From a virus, in IMG/VR virus record IMGVR_UViG_3300025093_001713, positions 1 through 37,747 of that record: a stretch of DNA of 37,747 nt; one strand, given 5' to 3'. Of the stretch, positions 22,030 through 37,747 are shown in pieces. Position 1 is the first letter of the stretch. Each line of letters opens with the position of its first letter. The position numbers and the translations under genes were made by a program. Under the pieces are notes generated by a model. It had not been told where the DNA came from. It saw only the letters and a program-made list of their open reading frames with translations, and ran no database searches.

Positions 22030-22461
22030 ATGATGATGGCCCTGGGGCTGTATGTGTTCGGCCTGGATACCGCCGCCTACCAGGACTTCCAGCGGCAAAC
22101 CAACTGGCGGCACCCCAGCAGCAACCGTGTGGGTGCTGCGCCGGTGCGCCAGTTTGTGGGCAAGGGTGAAGACACTATCACCCTGTCTGGCTTGATTCTG
22201 CCGGAGTTCAGCGGCAAGCGGCTGTCCCTCGACGCCCTGCGGCTGATGGCAGACACCGGCAAGGCCTGGCCCATGGTCGAGGGCACCGGCCGCATTTACG
22301 GGCTGTGGAGCATCGAGAGCATCAGCGAGAACAACACCCTGTTCTTCAGCGATGGCGCACCGCGGCGGATCGACTTCAGCATCACCCTGCAGCGCGAAGA
22401 CGACAGCCGCCTCGAGCTGCTCGGCAACCTGGCTGAAACCATAGGGAACATCCTCAGATGA
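22030..22461 (+). CDS. U: Tail protein U (P2 gpU-like)
   Basis: 143 aa. LG.YVF.L.TA.YQ...R...WRH....RVG..P..QF.G.G.D.ITL.G is the gpU pattern. Confidence 0.9.
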   Translation: MMMALGLYVFGLDTAAYQDFQRQTNWRHPSSNRVGAAPVRQFVGKGEDTITLSGLILPEFSGKRLSLDALRLMADTGKAWPMVEGTGRIYGLWSIESISENNTLFFSDGAPRRIDFSITLQREDDSRLELLGNLAETIGNILR

Positions 22462-23678
22462 TCGAGCAGCTCACCAGCCACACCGCGCCGGCGTTCCGCC
22501 TGGCCGTCGACGGCCGCGACATCACCCCCAAGGTCAACAACCGCCTGCTGCGCCTCACGCTCACAGACAACCGCGGCATCGAGGCCGACCAGCTCGATCT
22601 GACCCTGCACGACCACGACGGACTGCTCGCCATACCGCCGCGCCGCGCGGTGATCGACCTCTGGTTGGGCTGGCAGGGCAACGCCCTGGTGTACAAGGGC
22701 AGTTTCACCGTGGACGAGGTAGAGCATTCCGGCGCCCCGGATGTGCTTATGATCCGCGCCCGCAGCGCCGACATGCGCGCCGGCCTGACGCGCAAACGCG
22801 AGCGCAGCTGGCACCAGACCACCCTGGGCGAGATCATCGCCAGCGTGGCCGCAGCGTACAGCCTCATCCCGGTGGTCGATCGCGTGCTCGGCCAGATCCC
22901 GGTACCGCATCTGGACCAGGTGGACGAATCAGACGCCAACCTGCTCACCCGCCTGGGTACCGACCACGACGCGATCGCCACCGTAAAGGCCGGCCATCTG
23001 CTGCTGCTGCCCGTAGGGGCCAGCAAAACCGCCAGCGGGGTCAACCTGCCGCACATCACGCTCACCCGCCGCGACGGCGACAGCCACCGCTACCTGGTCG
23101 CCGATCGGGACGCCTACACCGGCGTGCGCGCCTACTACTACGACCCCAACAGCGCAGAACGGCTCGAGGCGATCATCGGCACCGAAGACAACATCAAAAC
23201 CCTGCGCCACGTGTATGCCAACGAGCAAAGCGCCCTGCAGGCTGCCCGGGCGGAATGGCGACGGCTGCAACGTGGCCTGGCTACCCTCAGCTACACCATC
23301 GCCCGCGGCCGGCCAGACCTTATCCCCGAGATGACCTTCAGCCTGGTCGGCATCAAGCAGCAGATCACCGAAGTGGTCTGGCTCTGCGCACGCCTCACCC
23401 ATGAGTTGAGCGACAGCGGCTACATCAACAGGCTGGAGCTAGAAAACCAATTGGCCGAAGACGAGGATCTGGCCGCGCTGGTAGAGGGCGGCTATACCGG
23501 CGTGCTGGCTTGGTACCGGGACAAAGACGGGGCCCAGAAGAAGATCACCCAGGGCGACCAGGCCAACCCCAAGCGGTTGACCCATCTGTATGCCAGTAAG
23601 GGGAGTGCGGAAAGGGCGGTGGAACGGGAGTTTGAGAGGTTGGAAGTGGGGCCCGGTGATTCGGCCCCTAATGCCTAG
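22458..23678 (+). CDS. D: Tail protein D / late control D (P2 gpD-like)
   Basis: 406 aa, the last gene of the tail operon, with its start coupled to the U stop. Confidence 0.9.
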   Translation: MIEQLTSHTAPAFRLAVDGRDITPKVNNRLLRLTLTDNRGIEADQLDLTLHDHDGLLAIPPRRAVIDLWLGWQGNALVYKGSFTVDEVEHSGAPDVLMIRARSADMRAGLTRKRERSWHQTTLGEIIASVAAAYSLIPVVDRVLGQIPVPHLDQVDESDANLLTRLGTDHDAIATVKAGHLLLLPVGASKTASGVNLPHITLTRRDGDSHRYLVADRDAYTGVRAYYYDPNSAERLEAIIGTEDNIKTLRHVYANEQSALQAARAEWRRLQRGLATLSYTIARGRPDLIPEMTFSLVGIKQQITEVVWLCARLTHELSDSGYINRLELENQLAEDEDLAALVEGGYTGVLAWYRDKDGAQKKITQGDQANPKRLTHLYASKGSAERAVEREFERLEVGPGDSAPNA

Positions 23679-23683
23679 GCAAT

Positions 23684-24865
23684 TTATTCTTTCGGTTTGG
23701 GAATAATACCCATTTTGCGTTGGAACTCCTCGAAAGGCTCCAGTCCCTTTGCCGCGTCCTTTATCAACTGATGATTGGGGTTAGCATCCAGGTTGCGGTG
23801 CATCTCGTTGAAAGGTTCCAATATTTTAGCCGCGTTCTTTATCAATTGTTGATTTGGAGGCTCTAGCAGTGATTTGAGATTGTCCGACATGGGTTGTAGC
23901 TTTAGAGCATTTTGAGTGGCCATTACCGAATCAAGCAAAGCCCTTGCATCACTGTTTAAAACTGGGCTGTTCTTGAGTTCATCTAGTTTGGCAGTTTTAG
24001 ACTCACCCCTTCTTGGCTGTTCAACTACTGCAGCGGCCTTGTTTCTTGGTTCGATCATGGCTTTCATCGCTTTATCGTAGAACAGTGATGCTGCCGCCAT
24101 CTCTCTGTCTGTGAAACCTAATCTGCGGGCTTCTTCCGACGCCTCGTCCATGGCCAATGAGATATTTCGCAGATACTGGTCATGCATCTCCTTGGTTAAC
24201 TTAATTATCAATCCCTTTTCCCGCGTTTTGAGTTCTTTGAGCTCGTTATTGCTTTGTTTTTTTAACTCGCCCTCCCGCTTGATAAAGTTATCTATTCTTT
24301 CTTGCAGCTCGCTTACTTCTAACCTGTGAACTTCCCCGTCTTTAGTTTTGTTCTCTCTGGCGACTTCGATCTGCTTTTGTGCGGCGTCCAGTTGTTCTTC
24401 AAGGTATTCGAACTTTTTATTAACGGAATTTAGCTGCCGATCCTTTGCATCAAGTTCAGCCTCCGACTCAGCGACCTTTCTATCCGCCTCGCGCCGGTTT
24501 TCACGGGCTTCCTCCCTTGACATAGGATTGGCATCAACGTGCTTGACGTAGTCTTCCTTCGCCTTCCGGATTTGCCAGCGCCAGTATTTCATCAGATAGC
24601 GGTTTGCAAAGGGGTAGCTAAAAACGAACGCCGCCGCGAAGATCCCTGGGTAGATAATGCCGAGCGTTATCCCATTCAGCCAGGGCGATTGCAGTGCGAA
24701 GTGGGCTTGTAAGACGGCCAGTTTATCTTCTACAGAGTTTGTAGAAAGCAGCCACAGAATCACCTTGTGATTCAACACCACCCAGGAAAGGATGAATGGC
24801 AGGAAAATGGGGTTGGTAACCCGCTCTGATATCTGCACCTTTACCGAATCCAATACTTCTCTCAT
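23684..24865 (-). CDS. Membrane-anchored coiled-coil protein of unknown function (cargo)
   Basis: 393 aa and AT-rich. It has two to three N-terminal hydrophobic helices (PIFLPFILSWVVL..., LGIIYPGIFAAAFVFSYPF), about 150 aa of E/K/R-rich heptad-like sequence, and a C-terminal tandem 26-aa repeat. A GAAAGGA RBS lies in the 12-nt gap after the upstream small gene. Confidence 0.75.
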   Translation of the reverse strand: MREVLDSVKVQISERVTNPIFLPFILSWVVLNHKVILWLLSTNSVEDKLAVLQAHFALQSPWLNGITLGIIYPGIFAAAFVFSYPFANRYLMKYWRWQIRKAKEDYVKHVDANPMSREEARENRREADRKVAESEAELDAKDRQLNSVNKKFEYLEEQLDAAQKQIEVARENKTKDGEVHRLEVSELQERIDNFIKREGELKKQSNNELKELKTREKGLIIKLTKEMHDQYLRNISLAMDEASEEARRLGFTDREMAAASLFYDKAMKAMIEPRNKAAAVVEQPRRGESKTAKLDELKNSPVLNSDARALLDSVMATQNALKLQPMSDNLKSLLEPPNQQLIKNAAKILEPFNEMHRNLDANPNHQLIKDAAKGLEPFEEFQRKMGIIPKPKE

Positions 24866-24877
24866 GTCGAATCCTTT

Positions 24878-25072
24878 CTATGGTTGATCTTGTTCAGGCT
24901 TAGACGTGGTCGCCTCGCCCGCGCTACTGGCGATAAAGGCAAAGCACGCGGCAAATCTCAACAGATCCGCCTGGTGCAAAGGGTGCATTCTTCGAAAATG
25001 CTGGATCAACAATGCTTCTTCATCGCTCAGCGGCTCTACGTTCGCGTTTCCTTCGAGTTGTTCGATAAACAT
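24878..25072 (-). CDS. Small soluble protein resembling the C-terminal tail of the adjacent XRE repressor (cargo)
   Basis: 64 aa from the ATG at 25072 (AGGAG 8 nt upstream). The track start at 25081 is a GTG lying inside that RBS. It aligns without gaps to the repressor C-terminus (see findings). Confidence 0.65.
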   Translation of the reverse strand: MFIEQLEGNANVEPLSDEEALLIQHFRRMHPLHQADLLRFAACFAFIASSAGEATTSKPEQDQP

Positions 25073-25199
25073 GCTTGCCACTCCTAATACGGCGCCGGTA
25101 CCGGACTGATACCTTCCTTCGCCAGGAGTTATCTATTTTCAACACATCACCGCGTGTCAGAAGCCGCCTAAACGTCTAATTTCAGCATTAACTCGACTG

Positions 25200-25583
25200 C
25201 TATTGGCAAAGCTCAAGCCCCTGATGGATTAGCGGCCCGACGCTGTACCTGGTACCTGGCAATTCAGGGTTCTCCAGCCAGATGTCATCGAGGGTATCCA
25301 TATCGCTCTGTGTGCGCGCTGGCCCGTTGAGCGGATAGGTATCACCCGTCACAACGTCAGCGACCACCACCGCATTCCTGCGGAGACATATCAGGTGCAT
25401 TTCCTCCATGCTGAATGGCCATTCCGGCCCATAGCTCTCGGCGCTGATTAGCACAATATTGGGCGCCTTAGGTGGAGTGGGGGCTGCGGGGAGCTGCTCA
25501 ATATCATTGGCATCTGGCGCATCGCCACAAGCAGACAATAGAGCTGCAGCAAAAGTCGCAATAAGTGCATGTCGAAATTCCAT
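25200..25583 (-). CDS. Lipoprotein, DUF2511/YebY-like (cargo)
   Basis: 127 aa with a signal peptide and lipobox LSAC (Cys19). The segment W.F..EE..L.C......V......YPLN...A......I....P......PLI.....LC matches my recollection of E. coli YebY. An AAGGAAAA RBS lies in the 41-nt gap after the repressor gene. Confidence 0.7.
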   Translation of the reverse strand: MEFRHALIATFAAALLSACGDAPDANDIEQLPAAPTPPKAPNIVLISAESYGPEWPFSMEEMHLICLRRNAVVVADVVTGDTYPLNGPARTQSDMDTLDDIWLENPELPGTRYSVGPLIHQGLELCQ

Positions 25584-25624: not shown

Positions 25625-25975
25625 TCAGCCCTCTTTTGACACTCCATACACAGCAGCCGTCTCGGCCAGGGCGGTGGTGAGGCGCTCAACGGCAGCCTGA
25701 TCAGGGGCGGGAAGTTTGCGGTAGTGGTCTAGCACTGATGCCTCTTCCTCTGTGAGCGATCCCTCCAAAGCAGGCGTTCTGCGGCCAGTTAGAACGTAGA
25801 GCACATCGACGCCATTCTCTGCGATTGCGGCAAGGTAGGGCGCGTCGGGGTGCCTGGAACCCTTCTCATAATTCAGCTGAGTGGTTTTCGTCACCCCGCC
25901 AAGAGCGCCGAAATCTTCTTGATTGAAGCCCAGCCTCCGGCGCTCTTCTTTCAGTCTTTCGCCGAAGTTCAACAA
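25625..25975 (-). CDS. Prophage repressor, XRE-family HTH (CI/C-like)
   Basis: HTH_XRE core FGERLKEERRRLGFNQEDFGALGGVTKTTQLNYEKGSRHPDAPYLAAIAENGVDVLYVLTG. It is divergent from a Cro/Ner-like gene. There is no in-frame ATG, so the probable start is a TTG at 25975 (or 25972) about 10 nt after AGGAA. The 214-aa track ORF upstream of this point is antisense to the cro-like gene and is rejected. Confidence 0.8.
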   Translation of the reverse strand: MLNFGERLKEERRRLGFNQEDFGALGGVTKTTQLNYEKGSRHPDAPYLAAIAENGVDVLYVLTGRRTPALEGSLTEEEASVLDHYRKLPAPDQAAVERLTTALAETAAVYGVSKEG

Positions 25976-25992
25976 ATGGGCACCATTTCCTG

Positions 25993-26022
25993 TTGACAGT
26001 TCAACGAATGTTGAACTAATCT
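25993..26022 (+). promoter_or_regulatory. Putative early (lytic) promoter
   Basis: -35 TTGACA (25993-25998), an 18-nt spacer, and -10 TAATCT (26017-26022). It lies about 30 nt upstream of the cro-like ATG. Confidence 0.5.
25999..26016. promoter_or_regulatory. Operator: inverted repeat GTTCAAC-N4-GTTGAAC
   Basis: Perfect 7-bp arms fill the -35/-10 spacer of the putative lytic promoter. Further half-sites occur at 25967-25973 (GTTCAAC, overlapping the repressor start codon) and 26031-26036 (TTGAAC), with a degenerate copy at 25992-25997 (GTTGAC). Confidence 0.6.
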
Positions 26023-26053: not shown

Positions 26054-26296
26054 ATGACTATGCCAAACCTCAGAACCCCAGAGCAAGCGCGCGAATGGCT
26101 GGATCAGCAGGGCAAATCCGTGACTGAGTTCGCCGCCGAACATGATCTCGACCTGCACACCACCTACCAGGTGCTCTCCGGCGCCAAGAAAGGCAAACGG
26201 GGCGAGGCGCACAAAGCTGCCGTCGCACTGGGCATCAAGCAGGGCGAAGTACCCCTGCCGCCGTTTCAACCTGTACCCGCTCAGATCAGCCAGTAA
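26054..26296 (+). CDS. Cro/Ner-like DNA-binding protein (BcepMu gp16-like family)
   Basis: 80 aa, the first gene of the rightward early operon. RTPEQAREWLDQQGKSVTEFAAEHDLDLHTTYQVLSG..KG.RGEAHKAAVALGIK fits the small HTH family I recall as phage-associated BcepMu gp16. Confidence 0.75.
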   Translation: MTMPNLRTPEQAREWLDQQGKSVTEFAAEHDLDLHTTYQVLSGAKKGKRGEAHKAAVALGIKQGEVPLPPFQPVPAQISQ

Positions 26297-34694: not shown

Positions 34695-36309
<1,615 letters not shown>

Positions 36310-36553: not shown

Positions 36554-37747
36554 GTGGAGTCCAAGGTGACCAAAGCAACAGACACCTATGCCCTGTCTGC
36601 CTGGCGTGGCGAATTTGTTTTTAAAGAGACCGAGCAGGCCTATCGTGAGCACGTCAAGGAGGAAACCGCCCGCCACCTGATAGTGGCCCTGCGTGTATGG
36701 GCAGGATTGCTGGTCACCTTCGGCTGGTTGGATTATATCGCCCTGGGCATGAGCGAAGGCTTTTATCACCTGATGGGTATGCGGTTGTTTTCCGCGACCA
36801 TGGTGCTGATCTTCTCCGCGGTGATCAAGTATCGTCCCGGGCTGGCCCGTGACGGTGTTGGTGTGACCATCATCGAGGTGCTCGGCTTCTTCCTCTTCTT
36901 TATGATCTATTTCGTACGGCCGGACATCACCACCTGGAATATAGGGGTCACGGTCATTCTGCTGATCAGTATCTATATTTTCGTTCCCAACCGGATCGTC
37001 AATTCCAACCTGGTATCACTGTTCGGGATCCTCGGGACTCTCTACTGTGTTGCTCTGAACGGAGCCGAGCCCAGACTCCTGATAGGCCTGTTCTTCCTGC
37101 TCGGCCTGCCTACGACTATCGGTTACTTTGCCGGTGTCAGACTTAACCTGGGCAAGCGTCATCAATATGCCCTGTTCATGGAAACAGTGCAGGTCAACCA
37201 GTCCCTGCAGGCGGAGATCAAGCGCCGTGAAGCGCTCGAAGTCGAGCTCAAGCTTCAGGCGACCACCGATCCGCTGACCGGGCTGCTCAATCGCCGGCAA
37301 TACGAAAACCTGTTCTCCCGTGAGCAGGAGCGGGTAAAGCGCCATGGCAGCAAGCTGTCACTGTGCGTTGCCGATCTGGACCATTTCAAGAGGGTCAATG
37401 ACGAGCATGGTCACGACGCCGGTGACCAGGTGCTCAAGCACATTTCCGATCTTTTCGTGGACACGCTCCGGCATACGGACATCGTCGGGCGCTTTGGTGG
37501 CGAGGAGTTTATCCTGCTGTTGCCTGATACCGATCTCGACAATGCGCTGACGGTCATCAGCCGGCTGCGCGAGAAGCTGCAGGCCAGCCCGGTGAATGTG
37601 GGAGACAAGGTGCTCCAGGTTACCGCGACTTTTGCGGTCACGGAGGTGGTAGCAGAGGATGCCACCATCGAGGACGTGATTCGTCGCGCCGACAAGGCGC
37701 TCTACCAGGGCAAGGAGGCAGGCCGGAACCAGGTGGTGGCGAGCTGA
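36554..37747 (+). CDS. Membrane-bound diguanylate cyclase (GGDEF domain), host gene
   Basis: The N-terminal ~200 aa contain about six hydrophobic helices. The C-terminus has a GGDEF domain with the active-site motif GGEEF and an RxxD I-site (RHTD) five residues upstream. The start is a GTG at 36554 or at 36566; the latter has a GGTGGAG RBS. Confidence 0.88.
   Translation: MESKVTKATDTYALSAWRGEFVFKETEQAYREHVKEETARHLIVALRVWAGLLVTFGWLDYIALGMSEGFYHLMGMRLFSATMVLIFSAVIKYRPGLARDGVGVTIIEVLGFFLFFMIYFVRPDITTWNIGVTVILLISIYIFVPNRIVNSNLVSLFGILGTLYCVALNGAEPRLLIGLFFLLGLPTTIGYFAGVRLNLGKRHQYALFMETVQVNQSLQAEIKRREALEVELKLQATTDPLTGLLNRRQYENLFSREQERVKRHGSKLSLCVADLDHFKRVNDEHGHDAGDQVLKHISDLFVDTLRHTDIVGRFGGEEFILLLPDTDLDNALTVISRLREKLQASPVNVGDKVLQVTATFAVTEVVAEDATIEDVIRRADKALYQGKEAGRNQVVAS

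What the first reader, a model, noticed from the sequence alone, without database searches (positions are those of the whole stretch)
24878..25081. Small cargo protein looks like a stand-alone copy of the repressor's C-terminal tail, without the HTH
The two sequences align without gaps. The repressor C-terminus is LTEEEASVLDHYRKLPAPDQAAVERLTTALA and the small protein is LSDEEALLIQHFRRMHPLHQADLLRFAACFA. That gives 10 identities and about 10 conservative pairs over 31 positions. The small protein has no DNA-binding domain. If the repressor's tail mediates oligomerisation or partner binding, a free copy could act in several ways. It could modulate the repressor or act as an anti-repressor. It could be a decoy. 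It could tether the downstream membrane protein, to which it is translationally linked, to the repressor or to a related incoming-phage repressor. That would physically link the immunity and exclusion functions.
Basis: seen in the sequence. Interest (0 to 1): 0.65.

Follow-up and report, generated by a model that had tools for sequence, protein, structure and literature searches.

The report
Repressor-tail mimic gene in P2-like prophages
The small gene is real and belongs to a widespread, unnamed family of 38-70-residue phage proteins that copy the two-helix tail of the prophage's own repressor without its DNA-binding domain, so it most likely binds that tail and tunes or switches off the repressor, as SinI does to SinR.

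Summary
The ORF is best read as 64 aa from ATG 25072, with an AGGAG 8 nt upstream. It carries the motif L-x3-E-x2-LL-x2-[FY]R-x-[LM]-x3-[DH]Q-x5-R-x3-A. The same motif forms the conserved two-helix C-terminal tail of the neighbouring XRE-type repressor.

The pairwise similarity alone is only modest. However, 25 of 82 related loci, plus Pseudomonas phage Dobby gp34, carry an equivalent HTH-less small ORF. It is always on the repressor's strand and always downstream of it. It is almost confined to P2-like prophages with a convergent gpD gene (Fisher p = 4e-12). A profile of those small proteins, built without the window, scores the window ORF at 28.8 bits; the best of 5000 shuffles reaches 9.4. 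The small-protein profile matches a repressor-tail profile at 97.8% probability (E = 1e-12). dN/dS is 0.13-0.64. All members are annotated as hypothetical (phrog_23693).

The gene is therefore a conserved part of the immunity region, not cargo. The downstream 393-aa membrane protein is not a conserved partner.

Most likely mechanism, by inference: a SinI/AimX-like tail mimic that heterodimerises with the repressor. A conserved leader that sequesters the Shine-Dalgarno sequence suggests gated translation. Binding and its direction are untested.

The parts
24878..25072 (-). Small ORF, 64 aa from ATG 25072 (MFIEQLEG...EQDQP), stop TAG at 24878-24880.
   Evidence: AGGAG lies 8 nt upstream of the ATG. 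The gene was called at 64 aa in public assemblies (P0001).
24938..25030 (-). Repressor-tail-like two-helix motif, residues 15-45: LSDEEALLIQHFRRMHPLHQADLLRFAACFA.
   Evidence: The single-sequence AF2 model gives helices at residues 17-29 and 34-51 with pLDDT about 75-80.
25080..25129 (-). Structured leader. Anti-SD ACTCC (25125-25129) pairs with SD GGAGT (25080-25084). Two inner helices lie between them: GGCG/CGCC, and GGTATCA with CGGTACC.
   Evidence: Across 13 leaders, 90.5% of cells are paired against 83.7% in shuffles (0 of 500 reach the observed value), and 6 pairs have compensatory changes. The window's own fold energy is not exceptional (z = -0.21).
25133..25161 (-). Conserved upstream block, CTGACACGCGGTGATGTGTTGAAAATAG (relatives have CTGGTGGCACGCG..TGTGCTGAGAATG). 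It may be a promoter or regulator site; its nature is unresolved.
   Evidence: It does not meet sigma-70 criteria. The spacing is wrong for sigma-54 (read from the alignment). It matches no Rfam family.
25625..25975 (-). XRE-family immunity repressor, 116 aa if it starts at TTG 25975 (MLNFGERL...). The start is uncertain because the ORF stays open upstream.
   Evidence: HTH_31 and HTH_3 hits. 96 homologues and alignment A1. AF2 pLDDT 87.9, with the HTH at residues 4-63 and tail helices at 76-87 and 90-115.
25664..25756 (-). Repressor C-terminal tail motif, residues 74-104: LTEEEASVLDHYRKLPAPDQAAVERLTTALA.
   Evidence: The motif is conserved across the family as L[TS]xxExxxLxxYRxLPxxDxAAVxRxxxALA.
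25200..25583 (-). 127-aa DUF2511/YebY-family protein with a lipoprotein-like N-terminus. It is variable cargo between the repressor and the small ORF.
   Evidence: Pfam PF10709, E = 1.6e-14. phrog_2950. Related prophages carry different genes at this position.
23684..24865 (-). 393-aa protein with two N-terminal hydrophobic segments and a long charged helical region. It starts 12 nt after the small ORF's stop and has its own AAGGA site. It is low-GC cargo.
   Evidence: phrog_4780, function unknown, E = 2.4e-14. Only one homologue, P0100, was found.
25966..26016 (.). Operator-like repeats in the repressor/cox divergent region: AGTTCAAC(A/G)AATG at 25966 and 25998, and the palindrome GTTCAACGAATGTTGAAC at 25999-26016.
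26054..26296 (+). Divergent 80-aa HTH protein in the position of Cox/Apl.
   Evidence: phrog_925, E = 3e-25. Dobby gp36 annotation.
22458..23678 (+). Convergent tail gene gpD, which marks the end of the repressor-side transcription unit.
   Evidence: Phage_GPD. tblastn across loci.

Best explanation
The ORF is a genuine, translated small gene. It belongs to a conserved family of 38-70-aa proteins that are paralogues of the two-helix C-terminal tail of the XRE-type immunity repressor of P2-like (Citexvirus-type) Pseudomonas prophages.

Inferred steps. The repressor tail is taken to be the module through which repressor subunits pair, as in SinR and the arbitrium repressor AimC. The free tail copy would then dock onto the repressor tail and form a mixed helical bundle carrying only one DNA-binding domain. 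That would lower or abolish cooperative operator binding, making the small protein a SinI-like anti-repressor or titrating modulator. Its translation appears to be held back by a conserved leader in which an upstream ACTCC pairs with the GGAGT Shine-Dalgarno. If so, the mimic would be made only when that structure is opened.

Shown here: homology, conservation, position, purifying selection, and covariation in the leader.
Inferred: tail-mediated oligomerisation, heterodimer formation, the direction of the effect, and the trigger.
For: - Homology to the tail. BLASTP E = 2e-5. Shuffle tests. The tail HMM ranks the ORF second in the six-frame window. The stand-alone-family HMM gives 28.8 bits against 9.4 for the best shuffle. 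hhalign of the small-protein family against the tails gives 97.8% probability, E = 1.3e-12, over 38 columns.
- Recurrence. There are 26 HTH-less hits in 25 of 82 related loci, all on the repressor's strand and downstream of it (binomial p about 2e-16). Phage Dobby gp34 is also a member.
- Association with the P2-like layout. 23 of 29 loci with a convergent gpD have the small ORF, against 3 of 55 without (Fisher p = 3.6e-12).
- Signs of a real gene. Nearly every member has an ATG with a GGAG-type Shine-Dalgarno. dN/dS is 0.13-0.64 in the 13 pairs where dS could be estimated.
- Structure. The repressor is predicted as an HTH plus linker plus helices 76-87 and 90-115 (pLDDT 87.9). The small protein is predicted with matching helices.
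- Structural neighbours with an HTH plus C-terminal helices include the SinR/SinI complex 1b0n and the phi106 repressor-AimX complex 9sf2.
- Precedent. SinI is conserved with, and binds, the SinR helical oligomerisation surface (PMC3163267 abstract). AimX binds the AimC C-terminal oligomerisation domain and blocks DNA binding (10.1101/2025.11.23.689978).
- Cognate small-protein/tail pairs are slightly more alike than non-cognate pairs (mean 43.8 against 40.0, permutation p = 0.013).
- The conserved SD-sequestering leader is supported by covariation.
Against: - No interaction was tested or modelled.
- The tail's role in oligomerisation is inferred from analogy, not shown.
- The gene lies downstream of the repressor on the same strand. 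No promoter or terminator is predicted between them in the window. It may therefore be co-transcribed with the repressor in lysogens, which is an odd place for a pure anti-repressor.
- No LexA box lies upstream, so there is no obvious induction signal.
- The cognate preference is weak and could reflect linkage alone.
- Six P2-like loci, including phage KS5, lack a detectable copy.
- In the one other context of the 393-aa gene (L004), the small ORF is decayed.
- The first 17 family members were picked by their score against the tail HMM. The profile-profile score is therefore partly circular. Position, strand, start signals and phrog_23693 are independent of that selection.
- The window's own leader fold is no more stable than shuffles.
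Confidence: 0.45

Rival explanations
1. Decoy or shield. The free tail does not inactivate its own repressor. It soaks up something that targets repressor tails, such as an anti-repressor from a satellite or competing phage, or a protease adaptor. Alternatively it captures the repressors of incoming related phages.
For: It sits on the repressor's strand with no predicted terminator between the two genes. Expression in the lysogen alongside immunity and cargo genes is therefore plausible. It resembles many family tails, not specifically its own: its own repressor ranks 4th of 97 and the best match is P0012. Cognate preference is weak.
Against: No tail-binding antagonist is known for this repressor family. 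The SD-sequestering leader argues against constitutive production. This explanation needs the same untested tail-tail or tail-partner binding.
Confidence: 0.15
2. Positive cofactor. The small protein joins the repressor's helical bundle and stabilises the repressor or changes its oligomeric state, for example by capping or bridging dimers. It would then reinforce immunity rather than relieve it.
For: It has the same position and orientation as the repressor operon. It is conserved in most P2-like members. No stress-responsive site lies upstream.
Against: A module with no DNA-binding domain that occupies a pairing surface is expected to reduce DNA-binding valency. Known precedents (SinI, AimX) are antagonists.
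Confidence: 0.12
3. Same fold, different partner. The two-helix module is a general interaction motif. The small protein acts on another phage or host factor (Cox-like protein, Ogr, RNA polymerase, replication proteins) independently of the repressor.
For: The family is ancient and only about 30% identical to cognate tails. Fifty-two loci carry the repressor and cox-like gene without any small ORF, so the tail works without it.
Against: Strict linkage to the repressor's strand and downstream side. Conserved hydrophobic and charged positions are shared with the tails.
Confidence: 0.15
4. The small protein links the repressor, or an incoming repressor, to the downstream 393-aa membrane protein and so couples immunity to exclusion.
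For: The two genes are 12 nt apart in the window. A remnant of the small ORF also precedes the only homologue of the 393-aa gene, in L004.
Against: In the other 25 loci and in Dobby, the small ORF is followed by gpD directly or by unrelated genes. In L004 the small ORF is broken by stops or a frameshift and scores 1 bit against the family HMM. The 393-aa gene therefore persists without it. The 393-aa gene has its own ribosome-binding site.
Confidence: 0.04
5. Non-functional relic. The ORF is a left-over 3' end of an older repressor gene, stranded by cargo insertion or an immunity swap.
For: It is homologous to the 3' end of repressor genes and lies in a recombination-prone cargo region with a GC drop. 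Decayed copies exist: L012 is truncated and L004 is broken.
Against: Starts with Shine-Dalgarno sequences are intact in nearly all copies. dN/dS is below 1 in every pair where it could be computed. Distinct conserved subfamilies occur across species. The leader is conserved with covariation. No HTH-coding remnant lies upstream.
Confidence: 0.04

Closest known systems
SinI / SinR (and SlrA / SlrR) of Bacillus subtilis
   Same: An XRE-type HTH repressor has a short C-terminal helical oligomerisation module. A separate small protein is homologous to that module, lacks the HTH, and forms a mixed helical bundle that abolishes DNA binding (PMC3163267 abstract). The SinR/SinI complex 1b0n is among the structural neighbours of the repressor model.
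   Different: No sequence relationship was found; Pfam returns no SinI hit. This is a phage immunity switch in Gammaproteobacteria, not a chromosomal biofilm switch. The small gene lies downstream of the repressor, often with cargo in between, rather than immediately upstream. Binding and antagonism are untested here.
AimX / AimC of arbitrium Bacillus phages (bioRxiv 10.1101/2025.11.23.689978; PDB 9sf2)
   Same: A phage XRE repressor is built as HTH, linker and helical C-terminal oligomerisation domain. A small helical protein occupies that domain and prevents oligomerisation and DNA binding. 9sf2 appears among the fold neighbours.
   Different: In the passages read, AimX is described as mimicking the position of the partner subunit, and its fold varies; it is not described there as a sequence paralogue of the repressor domain. 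AimX is controlled by AimR/AimP signalling. The hosts are Gram-positive. Here the small protein is a demonstrable sequence paralogue of the tail, and the control signal is unknown.
Anti-repressors of the P2 family: Tum of phage 186 and Epsilon of satellite P4 (from general knowledge)
   Same: P2-like phages have repressors that are not self-cleaving and can be inactivated by a small protein that binds the repressor.
   Different: Tum and Epsilon are not homologous to their target repressors. Tum is under LexA control, whereas no LexA box lies upstream of these small ORFs. Their genome positions also differ.
phrog_23693 (PHROGs v4, unknown function)
   Same: This is the sequence family that holds the stand-alone small proteins. 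Relatives hit it at E values down to 1.6e-7 and the window ORF hits it weakly at E = 0.096.
   Different: The family has no name, function or stated link to repressor tails. All public members examined are annotated 'hypothetical protein'.
Small-ORF anti-repressor modules of linear plasmid-like phages (bioRxiv 10.1101/2022.09.16.508337)
   Same: Phage-encoded small proteins control prophage induction (abstract). That they do so by inactivating the cI-type repressor is from my own recollection of the paper, not from the text retrieved.
   Different: As I recall, those small ORFs are paired with a dedicated transcription factor and are not reported as copies of the repressor's own domain. No such adjacent regulator is evident here.

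Membership tests
Stand-alone repressor-tail-like small proteins of P2-like Pseudomonas prophages (phrog_23693 type) | Sequence match to a profile of family members built without the query | tested here: met
   28.8 bits; the best of 5000 shuffles scores 9.4 and the next six-frame decoy in the window scores 1.7. The direct hit to phrog_23693 is weak at E = 0.096, but relatives hit it at E values down to 1.6e-7.
Stand-alone repressor-tail-like small proteins of P2-like Pseudomonas prophages (phrog_23693 type) | Position: same strand as the XRE repressor, downstream of it, and before the convergent gpD | tested here: met
   The window order on the minus strand is repressor 25625-25975, small ORF 24878-25072, then the convergent gpD at 22458-23678. 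All 26 relatives have the same orientation.
Stand-alone repressor-tail-like small proteins of P2-like Pseudomonas prophages (phrog_23693 type) | Short ORF (38-70 aa) with ATG and a GGAG(T) Shine-Dalgarno, and no HTH domain | tested here: met
   64 aa with AGGAGT 8 nt before the ATG. No Pfam HTH is found.
SinI-type anti-repressor | Small protein homologous to the C-terminal helical module of a partner XRE repressor | tested here: met
   hhalign gives 97.8% probability, E = 1.3e-12. BLASTP to its own repressor gives E = 2e-5.
SinI-type anti-repressor | Sequence membership in Pfam SinI (PF08671) | tested here: not met
   No Pfam family is hit by the window ORF at E <= 1. Eight relatives gave no SinI hit, only two sub-threshold hits to unrelated families. 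The resemblance is one of mechanism and architecture, not of family.
SinI-type anti-repressor | Forms a heteromer with the repressor's C-terminal module | not testable with these tools
   Only monomer predictions were available. No multimer modelling or experiment was possible.
SinI-type anti-repressor | Relieves repression or abolishes DNA binding | not testable with these tools
   Needs EMSA, a reporter assay or an induction assay.
LexA-controlled anti-repressor (Tum-like) | LexA box (CTG-N10-CAG) in the promoter region | tested here: not met
   None was found within 300 nt upstream in the window or in 18 of 19 relatives. L028 has one weak match.
XRE-family phage immunity repressor (the neighbour, not the small ORF) | N-terminal HTH_3/HTH_31 domain, divergent from a Cox-like gene, with repeats in between | tested here: met
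   Pfam HTH_31 at 4e-7 and HTH_3 at 7e-7. PDB neighbours are the 434 and P22 repressors. The divergent phrog_925 gene. Operator-like repeats.
P2-like prophage (Peduoviridae, Citexvirus-like) | Tail module (sheath, tube, gpE/E', tape measure, gpU, gpD), Ogr/Delta activator and primase next to the immunity region | tested here: met
   Pfam families on the identical contig L001. The repressor's nearest phage relatives include Pseudomonas phage Dobby, a Citexvirus.
Type I toxin-like small hydrophobic peptide | A predicted transmembrane helix | tested here: not met
   The maximum Kyte-Doolittle 19-residue mean is 1.22, below the 1.6 threshold. Family members are charged and amphipathic.

The most novel reading that the evidence does not exclude
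P2-like Pseudomonas phages, including P. aeruginosa Citexviruses such as Dobby, may carry a self-contained induction switch. A paralogue of the repressor's own pairing tail would be kept silent by an SD-sequestering RNA leader. When an as yet unknown signal opens the leader, the paralogue would be translated and would dismantle the non-cleavable repressor by subunit mimicry. That would explain how this group of phages, whose regulatory region has remained uncharacterised, leaves lysogeny without RecA-mediated cleavage and without a LexA-controlled anti-repressor.
Probability: 0.3. Interest if true: 0.75.

Novelty: new variant of a known kind. Interest (0 to 1): 0.62.

Why it matters
The immunity region of phiCTX/RSA1-type P2-like phages is poorly understood. 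A 2011 survey could not identify their repressor or their cox gene (PMC3448106).

This work identifies three things:
- a conserved repressor architecture of HTH plus a two-helix tail;
- a conserved small paralogue of that tail, present in many Pseudomonas prophages (the Dobby gp34 cluster alone is recorded on at least 1000 contigs);
- a conserved structured leader in front of the small gene.

Together these give a concrete hypothesis for how lysogeny is controlled in this phage group. It can be tested in a tractable system, Dobby gp34/gp35 in P. aeruginosa. If the hypothesis holds, it extends SinI-type control by subunit mimicry from a Bacillus developmental switch to Gram-negative prophage immunity. 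It would also give a function to an entire PHROG of unknown function.

Tried and rejected
- Direct homologue searches with the small ORF found nothing useful. The word-indexed search returned only the ORF itself. Full HMMER against 1.84 billion representatives returned the ORF itself plus a junk repeat ORF, P0098. tblastn against phages found nothing meaningful. The family was found only by scanning the surroundings of repressor homologues.
- The 393-aa protein has no relatives in genome or viral contig scans, or in phages. It has one homologue overall. Its PADLOC hits are weak coiled-coil noise.
- A relic of an HTH domain upstream of the small ORF: none in any frame.
- LexA boxes upstream: absent.
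- A sigma-70 promoter or intrinsic terminator between the repressor and the small ORF: none predicted.
- A sigma-54 reading of the conserved TGGCAC...TGC block: rejected, because the GG-to-GC spacing is 13 nt rather than 10 (read).
- A repressor operator copy upstream of the small ORF: only a 10-mer resemblance, not significant.
- Rfam: no match for the leader.
- Fold search with the low-confidence small-protein model: nothing meaningful.
- The PDB sequence search covers only the HTH, not the tail.
- The energy z-score of the window leader alone is unremarkable. Support for the leader comes only from the comparative alignment.

Full report
**1. The observation**

The ORF at 24878..25081 (-) exists.
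- BLASTP extends the alignment to 12/38 identities with no gaps, E = 2e-5 for the single comparison.
- The Smith-Waterman score is 53. One of 20000 shuffles of the small protein reaches it. No shuffle of the repressor or of its tail does.
- This is real but not overwhelming. Among 518 six-frame segments of the window, an unrelated non-coding frame scores 47.

Two details need correcting.
- The best start is ATG 25072, giving 64 aa. An AGGAG lies 8 nt upstream, and the GTG at 25081 sits inside that Shine-Dalgarno. Public gene calls use the 64-aa form.
- The 393-aa gene does not overlap the small ORF. It starts 12 nt after the stop codon and has its own AAGGA site.

**2. The repressor tail is a real module**

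The neighbouring gene (25625..25975, about 116 aa, start uncertain) is an XRE-type HTH protein. It is divergent from a Cox-position HTH gene (phrog_925), and operator-like repeats lie between the two.
- It has 96 homologues, mostly in Pseudomonas, Stutzerimonas and Burkholderia.
- Their alignment conserves the HTH, a DVLYVLTG motif, and then L[TS]xxExxxLxxYRxLPxxDxAAVxRxxxALA.
- AlphaFold2 with that alignment (pLDDT 87.9) gives a five-helix HTH at residues 4-63, a linker, and two helices at 76-87 and 90-115.
- PDB sequence hits cover only the HTH.
- Fold neighbours with an HTH plus C-terminal helices include C.Csp231I, the SinR/SinI complex (1b0n) and the phi106 repressor-AimX complex (9sf2).

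**3. Profile-level tests**

A tail HMM built without this window's repressor or its closest relative scores the small ORF at 12.7 bits. None of 5000 shuffles reaches that score. On the six-frame translation of the whole window it ranks the repressor first (63.8 bits), the small ORF second (11.5) and the next decoy at 5.2. The small ORF resembles many family tails, not only its own. Its own repressor ranks 4th of 97, and the best match is P0012 with a score of 65.

**4. The small ORF looked like an orphan until the neighbourhoods were scanned**

- Direct searches with the small ORF returned only itself.
- Two related prophage contigs were found through repressor homologues. Each carries an HTH-less ORF with the tail motif downstream of the repressor and of different cargo. 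L005 has a 43-aa ORF scoring 34.8 bits and L006 a 56-aa ORF scoring 18.5 bits.
- I then fetched 80 genomic loci around repressor homologues and scanned 2.1 million residues of six-frame translation. The tail HMM found HTH-less second hits in 17 loci, while unrelated noise reached at most 11 bits.
- A profile of 17 of those stand-alone proteins, built without the window, extended this to 26 hits in 25 loci. Every hit is on the repressor's strand and downstream of it (binomial p about 2e-16).
- Pseudomonas phage Dobby gp34, a 38-aa hypothetical protein lying immediately after the repressor gp35, is also a member.
- The window ORF scores 28.8 bits against this independent profile. The best of 5000 shuffles scores 9.4 and the next window decoy scores 1.7.
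- hhalign of the small-protein family against the repressor tails gives 97.8% probability, E = 1.3e-12, over 38 columns.

One caveat applies. The first family members were selected by their score against the tail HMM, so the hhalign figure is partly circular. Their strand, position and start signals, their similarity to each other, and their match to the independent phrog_23693 are not affected by that selection.

**5. It is a gene, and it is a core gene rather than cargo**

- Nearly every copy has an ATG preceded by GGAG, AGGAG or AAGGA.
- dN/dS is 0.13-0.64 in the 13 pairs where dS could be estimated.
- The small ORF tracks the P2-like layout. Of 29 loci with a convergent gpD downstream, 23 have it. 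Of 55 loci without gpD, 3 have it, and two of those are at contig ends (Fisher p = 3.6e-12). Those 55 loci are mostly a different kind of element that carries only the repressor and the cox-like gene.
- The genes between the repressor and the small ORF, and between the small ORF and gpD, differ from locus to locus. They include a DUF2511 lipoprotein, an SNase/Excalibur nuclease, a DndB-like protein, a Peptidase_S24 protein and proteins of unknown function.
- So the small ORF is the conserved element inside a cargo hot-spot. In the window the whole stretch 23700-25200 has low GC, 0.42-0.53 against about 0.66 for the phage.

**6. The 393-aa neighbour**

- It has two N-terminal hydrophobic segments and a long charged region.
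- It hits only phrog_4780, of unknown function.
- It has one homologue, P0100, at 45% identity.
- Upstream of P0100, in L004, there is a remnant of the small ORF. HQTDLLRFALC there matches HQADLLRFAAC in the window, and the DNA is 23/27 identical over that stretch.
- The first helix of that remnant lies in another frame and is interrupted by stops. The remnant scores 1 bit against the family profile.
- The pair may therefore have moved together once, but the 393-aa gene persists without an intact small ORF. In other loci the small ORF has no such neighbour. The tether idea is not supported.

**7. A conserved leader (an extension beyond the finding)**

Upstream of the small ORFs in the window, L005, Dobby and ten other loci there are four elements in order:
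- a conserved block (CTGGTGGCACGCG...TGTGCTGAGAATG in relatives; CTGACACGCGGTGATGTGTTGAAAATAG in the window);
- an ACTCC(C/T)GG element;
- a GC-rich hairpin;
- the GGAGT Shine-Dalgarno.

The RNAalifold consensus pairs ACTCC with GGAGT around two inner helices. On 13 leaders, 90.5% of cells are paired against 83.7% in shuffles (0 of 500 reach the observed value). The covariation score is 0.309 against 0.184 (0 of 500). Slid controls give 29-45% paired. Six pairs show compensatory changes, all in the inner helices.

The limits of this evidence are as follows.
- The structure was derived from the same alignment on which it was tested.
- The SD helix itself never covaries.
- The window's own fold energy is ordinary.
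- The leader matches no Rfam family.
- No sigma-70 promoter, terminator or LexA box was found.
- The TGGCAC...TGC block has the wrong spacing for sigma-54.

**8. Mechanism**

Shown: a conserved, selected small paralogue of the repressor's two-helix tail, without an HTH, fixed in the repressor-side transcription unit, and preceded by a structured leader.

Inferred: the tail is the repressor's pairing module, and the free copy docks on it. The closest precedents work exactly this way.
- SinI shares the helical surface of SinR and forms a heterodimer that cannot bind DNA (PMC3163267).
- AimX occupies the helical oligomerisation domain of the phage repressor AimC (10.1101/2025.11.23.689978).

I put the probability that the small protein binds the repressor tail at about 0.6, and the probability that the net effect is antagonism at about 0.45. 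An SD-sequestering leader fits a product that must be kept off in lysogens. The weak excess similarity of cognate pairs (p = 0.013) is compatible with co-evolution but also with simple linkage. The rivals are a decoy or shield, a positive cofactor, a different partner, a tether to the 393-aa protein, and a relic. Each is listed with its evidence in the Rival explanations section.

**9. Novelty**

All public members are annotated as hypothetical proteins, and the PHROG family has no function. The regulatory region of phiCTX/RSA1-type P2-like phages was described in 2011 as unidentified (PMC3448106). I found no paper describing this small protein. The principle, subunit mimicry of a repressor's oligomerisation module, is known from SinI and is similar to AimX. 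This is therefore a new variant of a known kind. It involves a different sequence family, a Gram-negative prophage immunity switch, a different gene arrangement, and a possible translational gate.

Noticed in passing
window 25080-25161 (-); L018 9254-9350, L087 4398-4494 and 10 other loci: A conserved leader lies upstream of the small ORFs. A sequence block is followed by an anti-SD ACTCC that pairs with the GGAGT Shine-Dalgarno around two hairpin helices with compensatory changes. It is not in Rfam. The upstream block resembles a sigma-54 -24/-12 element but has the wrong spacing.
   Followed up: partly
L004 620-890: The only homologue of the 393-aa gene (P0100, on an AT-rich 1.9-kb contig) is preceded by a decayed copy of the small ORF. 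HQTDLLRFALC is kept in one frame, while 'GSDERFLLD*' lies in another frame with stops.
   Followed up: yes
window 23705-23854 (-): The 393-aa protein ends with two tandem copies of a 24-residue unit, separated by two residues: NQQLIKNAAKILEPFNEMHRNLDA and NHQLIKDAAKGLEPFEEFQRKMGI (residues 338-361 and 364-387). The unit is absent from the homologue P0100.
   Followed up: no
window 25966-26016: Operator-like repeats lie between the repressor and the cox-like gene. There are two direct copies of AGTTCAAC(A/G)AATG 32 nt apart, and a perfect palindrome GTTCAACGAATGTTGAAC. The first copy overlaps the putative TTG start of the repressor.
   Followed up: partly
window 34695-36254 (+) and 36554-37747 (+): The prophage appears to use a large serine recombinase (Resolvase + Recombinase + Zn_ribbon_recom) rather than a P2-type tyrosine integrase. 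The next gene is a GGDEF diguanylate cyclase, probably host DNA, so the prophage end would lie near 36.3-36.5 kb.
   Followed up: no
L009 8674-8820 and 11765-11896: One Pseudomonas kuykendallii prophage carries two different tail-only small ORFs downstream of a single repressor. A DndB-like gene lies between them.
   Followed up: no
L013, L014, L019 and about 50 other loci (repressor at about 8001): A large clade of the same repressor family, with the tail motif LSEVEEWVLGSYR..., sits next to the cox-like gene. It has no Ogr, primase or gpD within 8 kb and no small ORF. This is a different kind of element that uses the same repressor architecture.
   Followed up: partly
L010 10457-12324: In one locus the small ORF is followed directly by a Peptidase_S24 protein and a 440-aa ORF. 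This looks like a UmuD/UmuC-type pair carried as cargo.
   Followed up: no
window 25200-25583 (-): A DUF2511/YebY-family protein with a lipoprotein-like N-terminus (phrog_2950) lies between the repressor and the small ORF. It is probably a lysogenic-conversion cargo gene.
   Followed up: no
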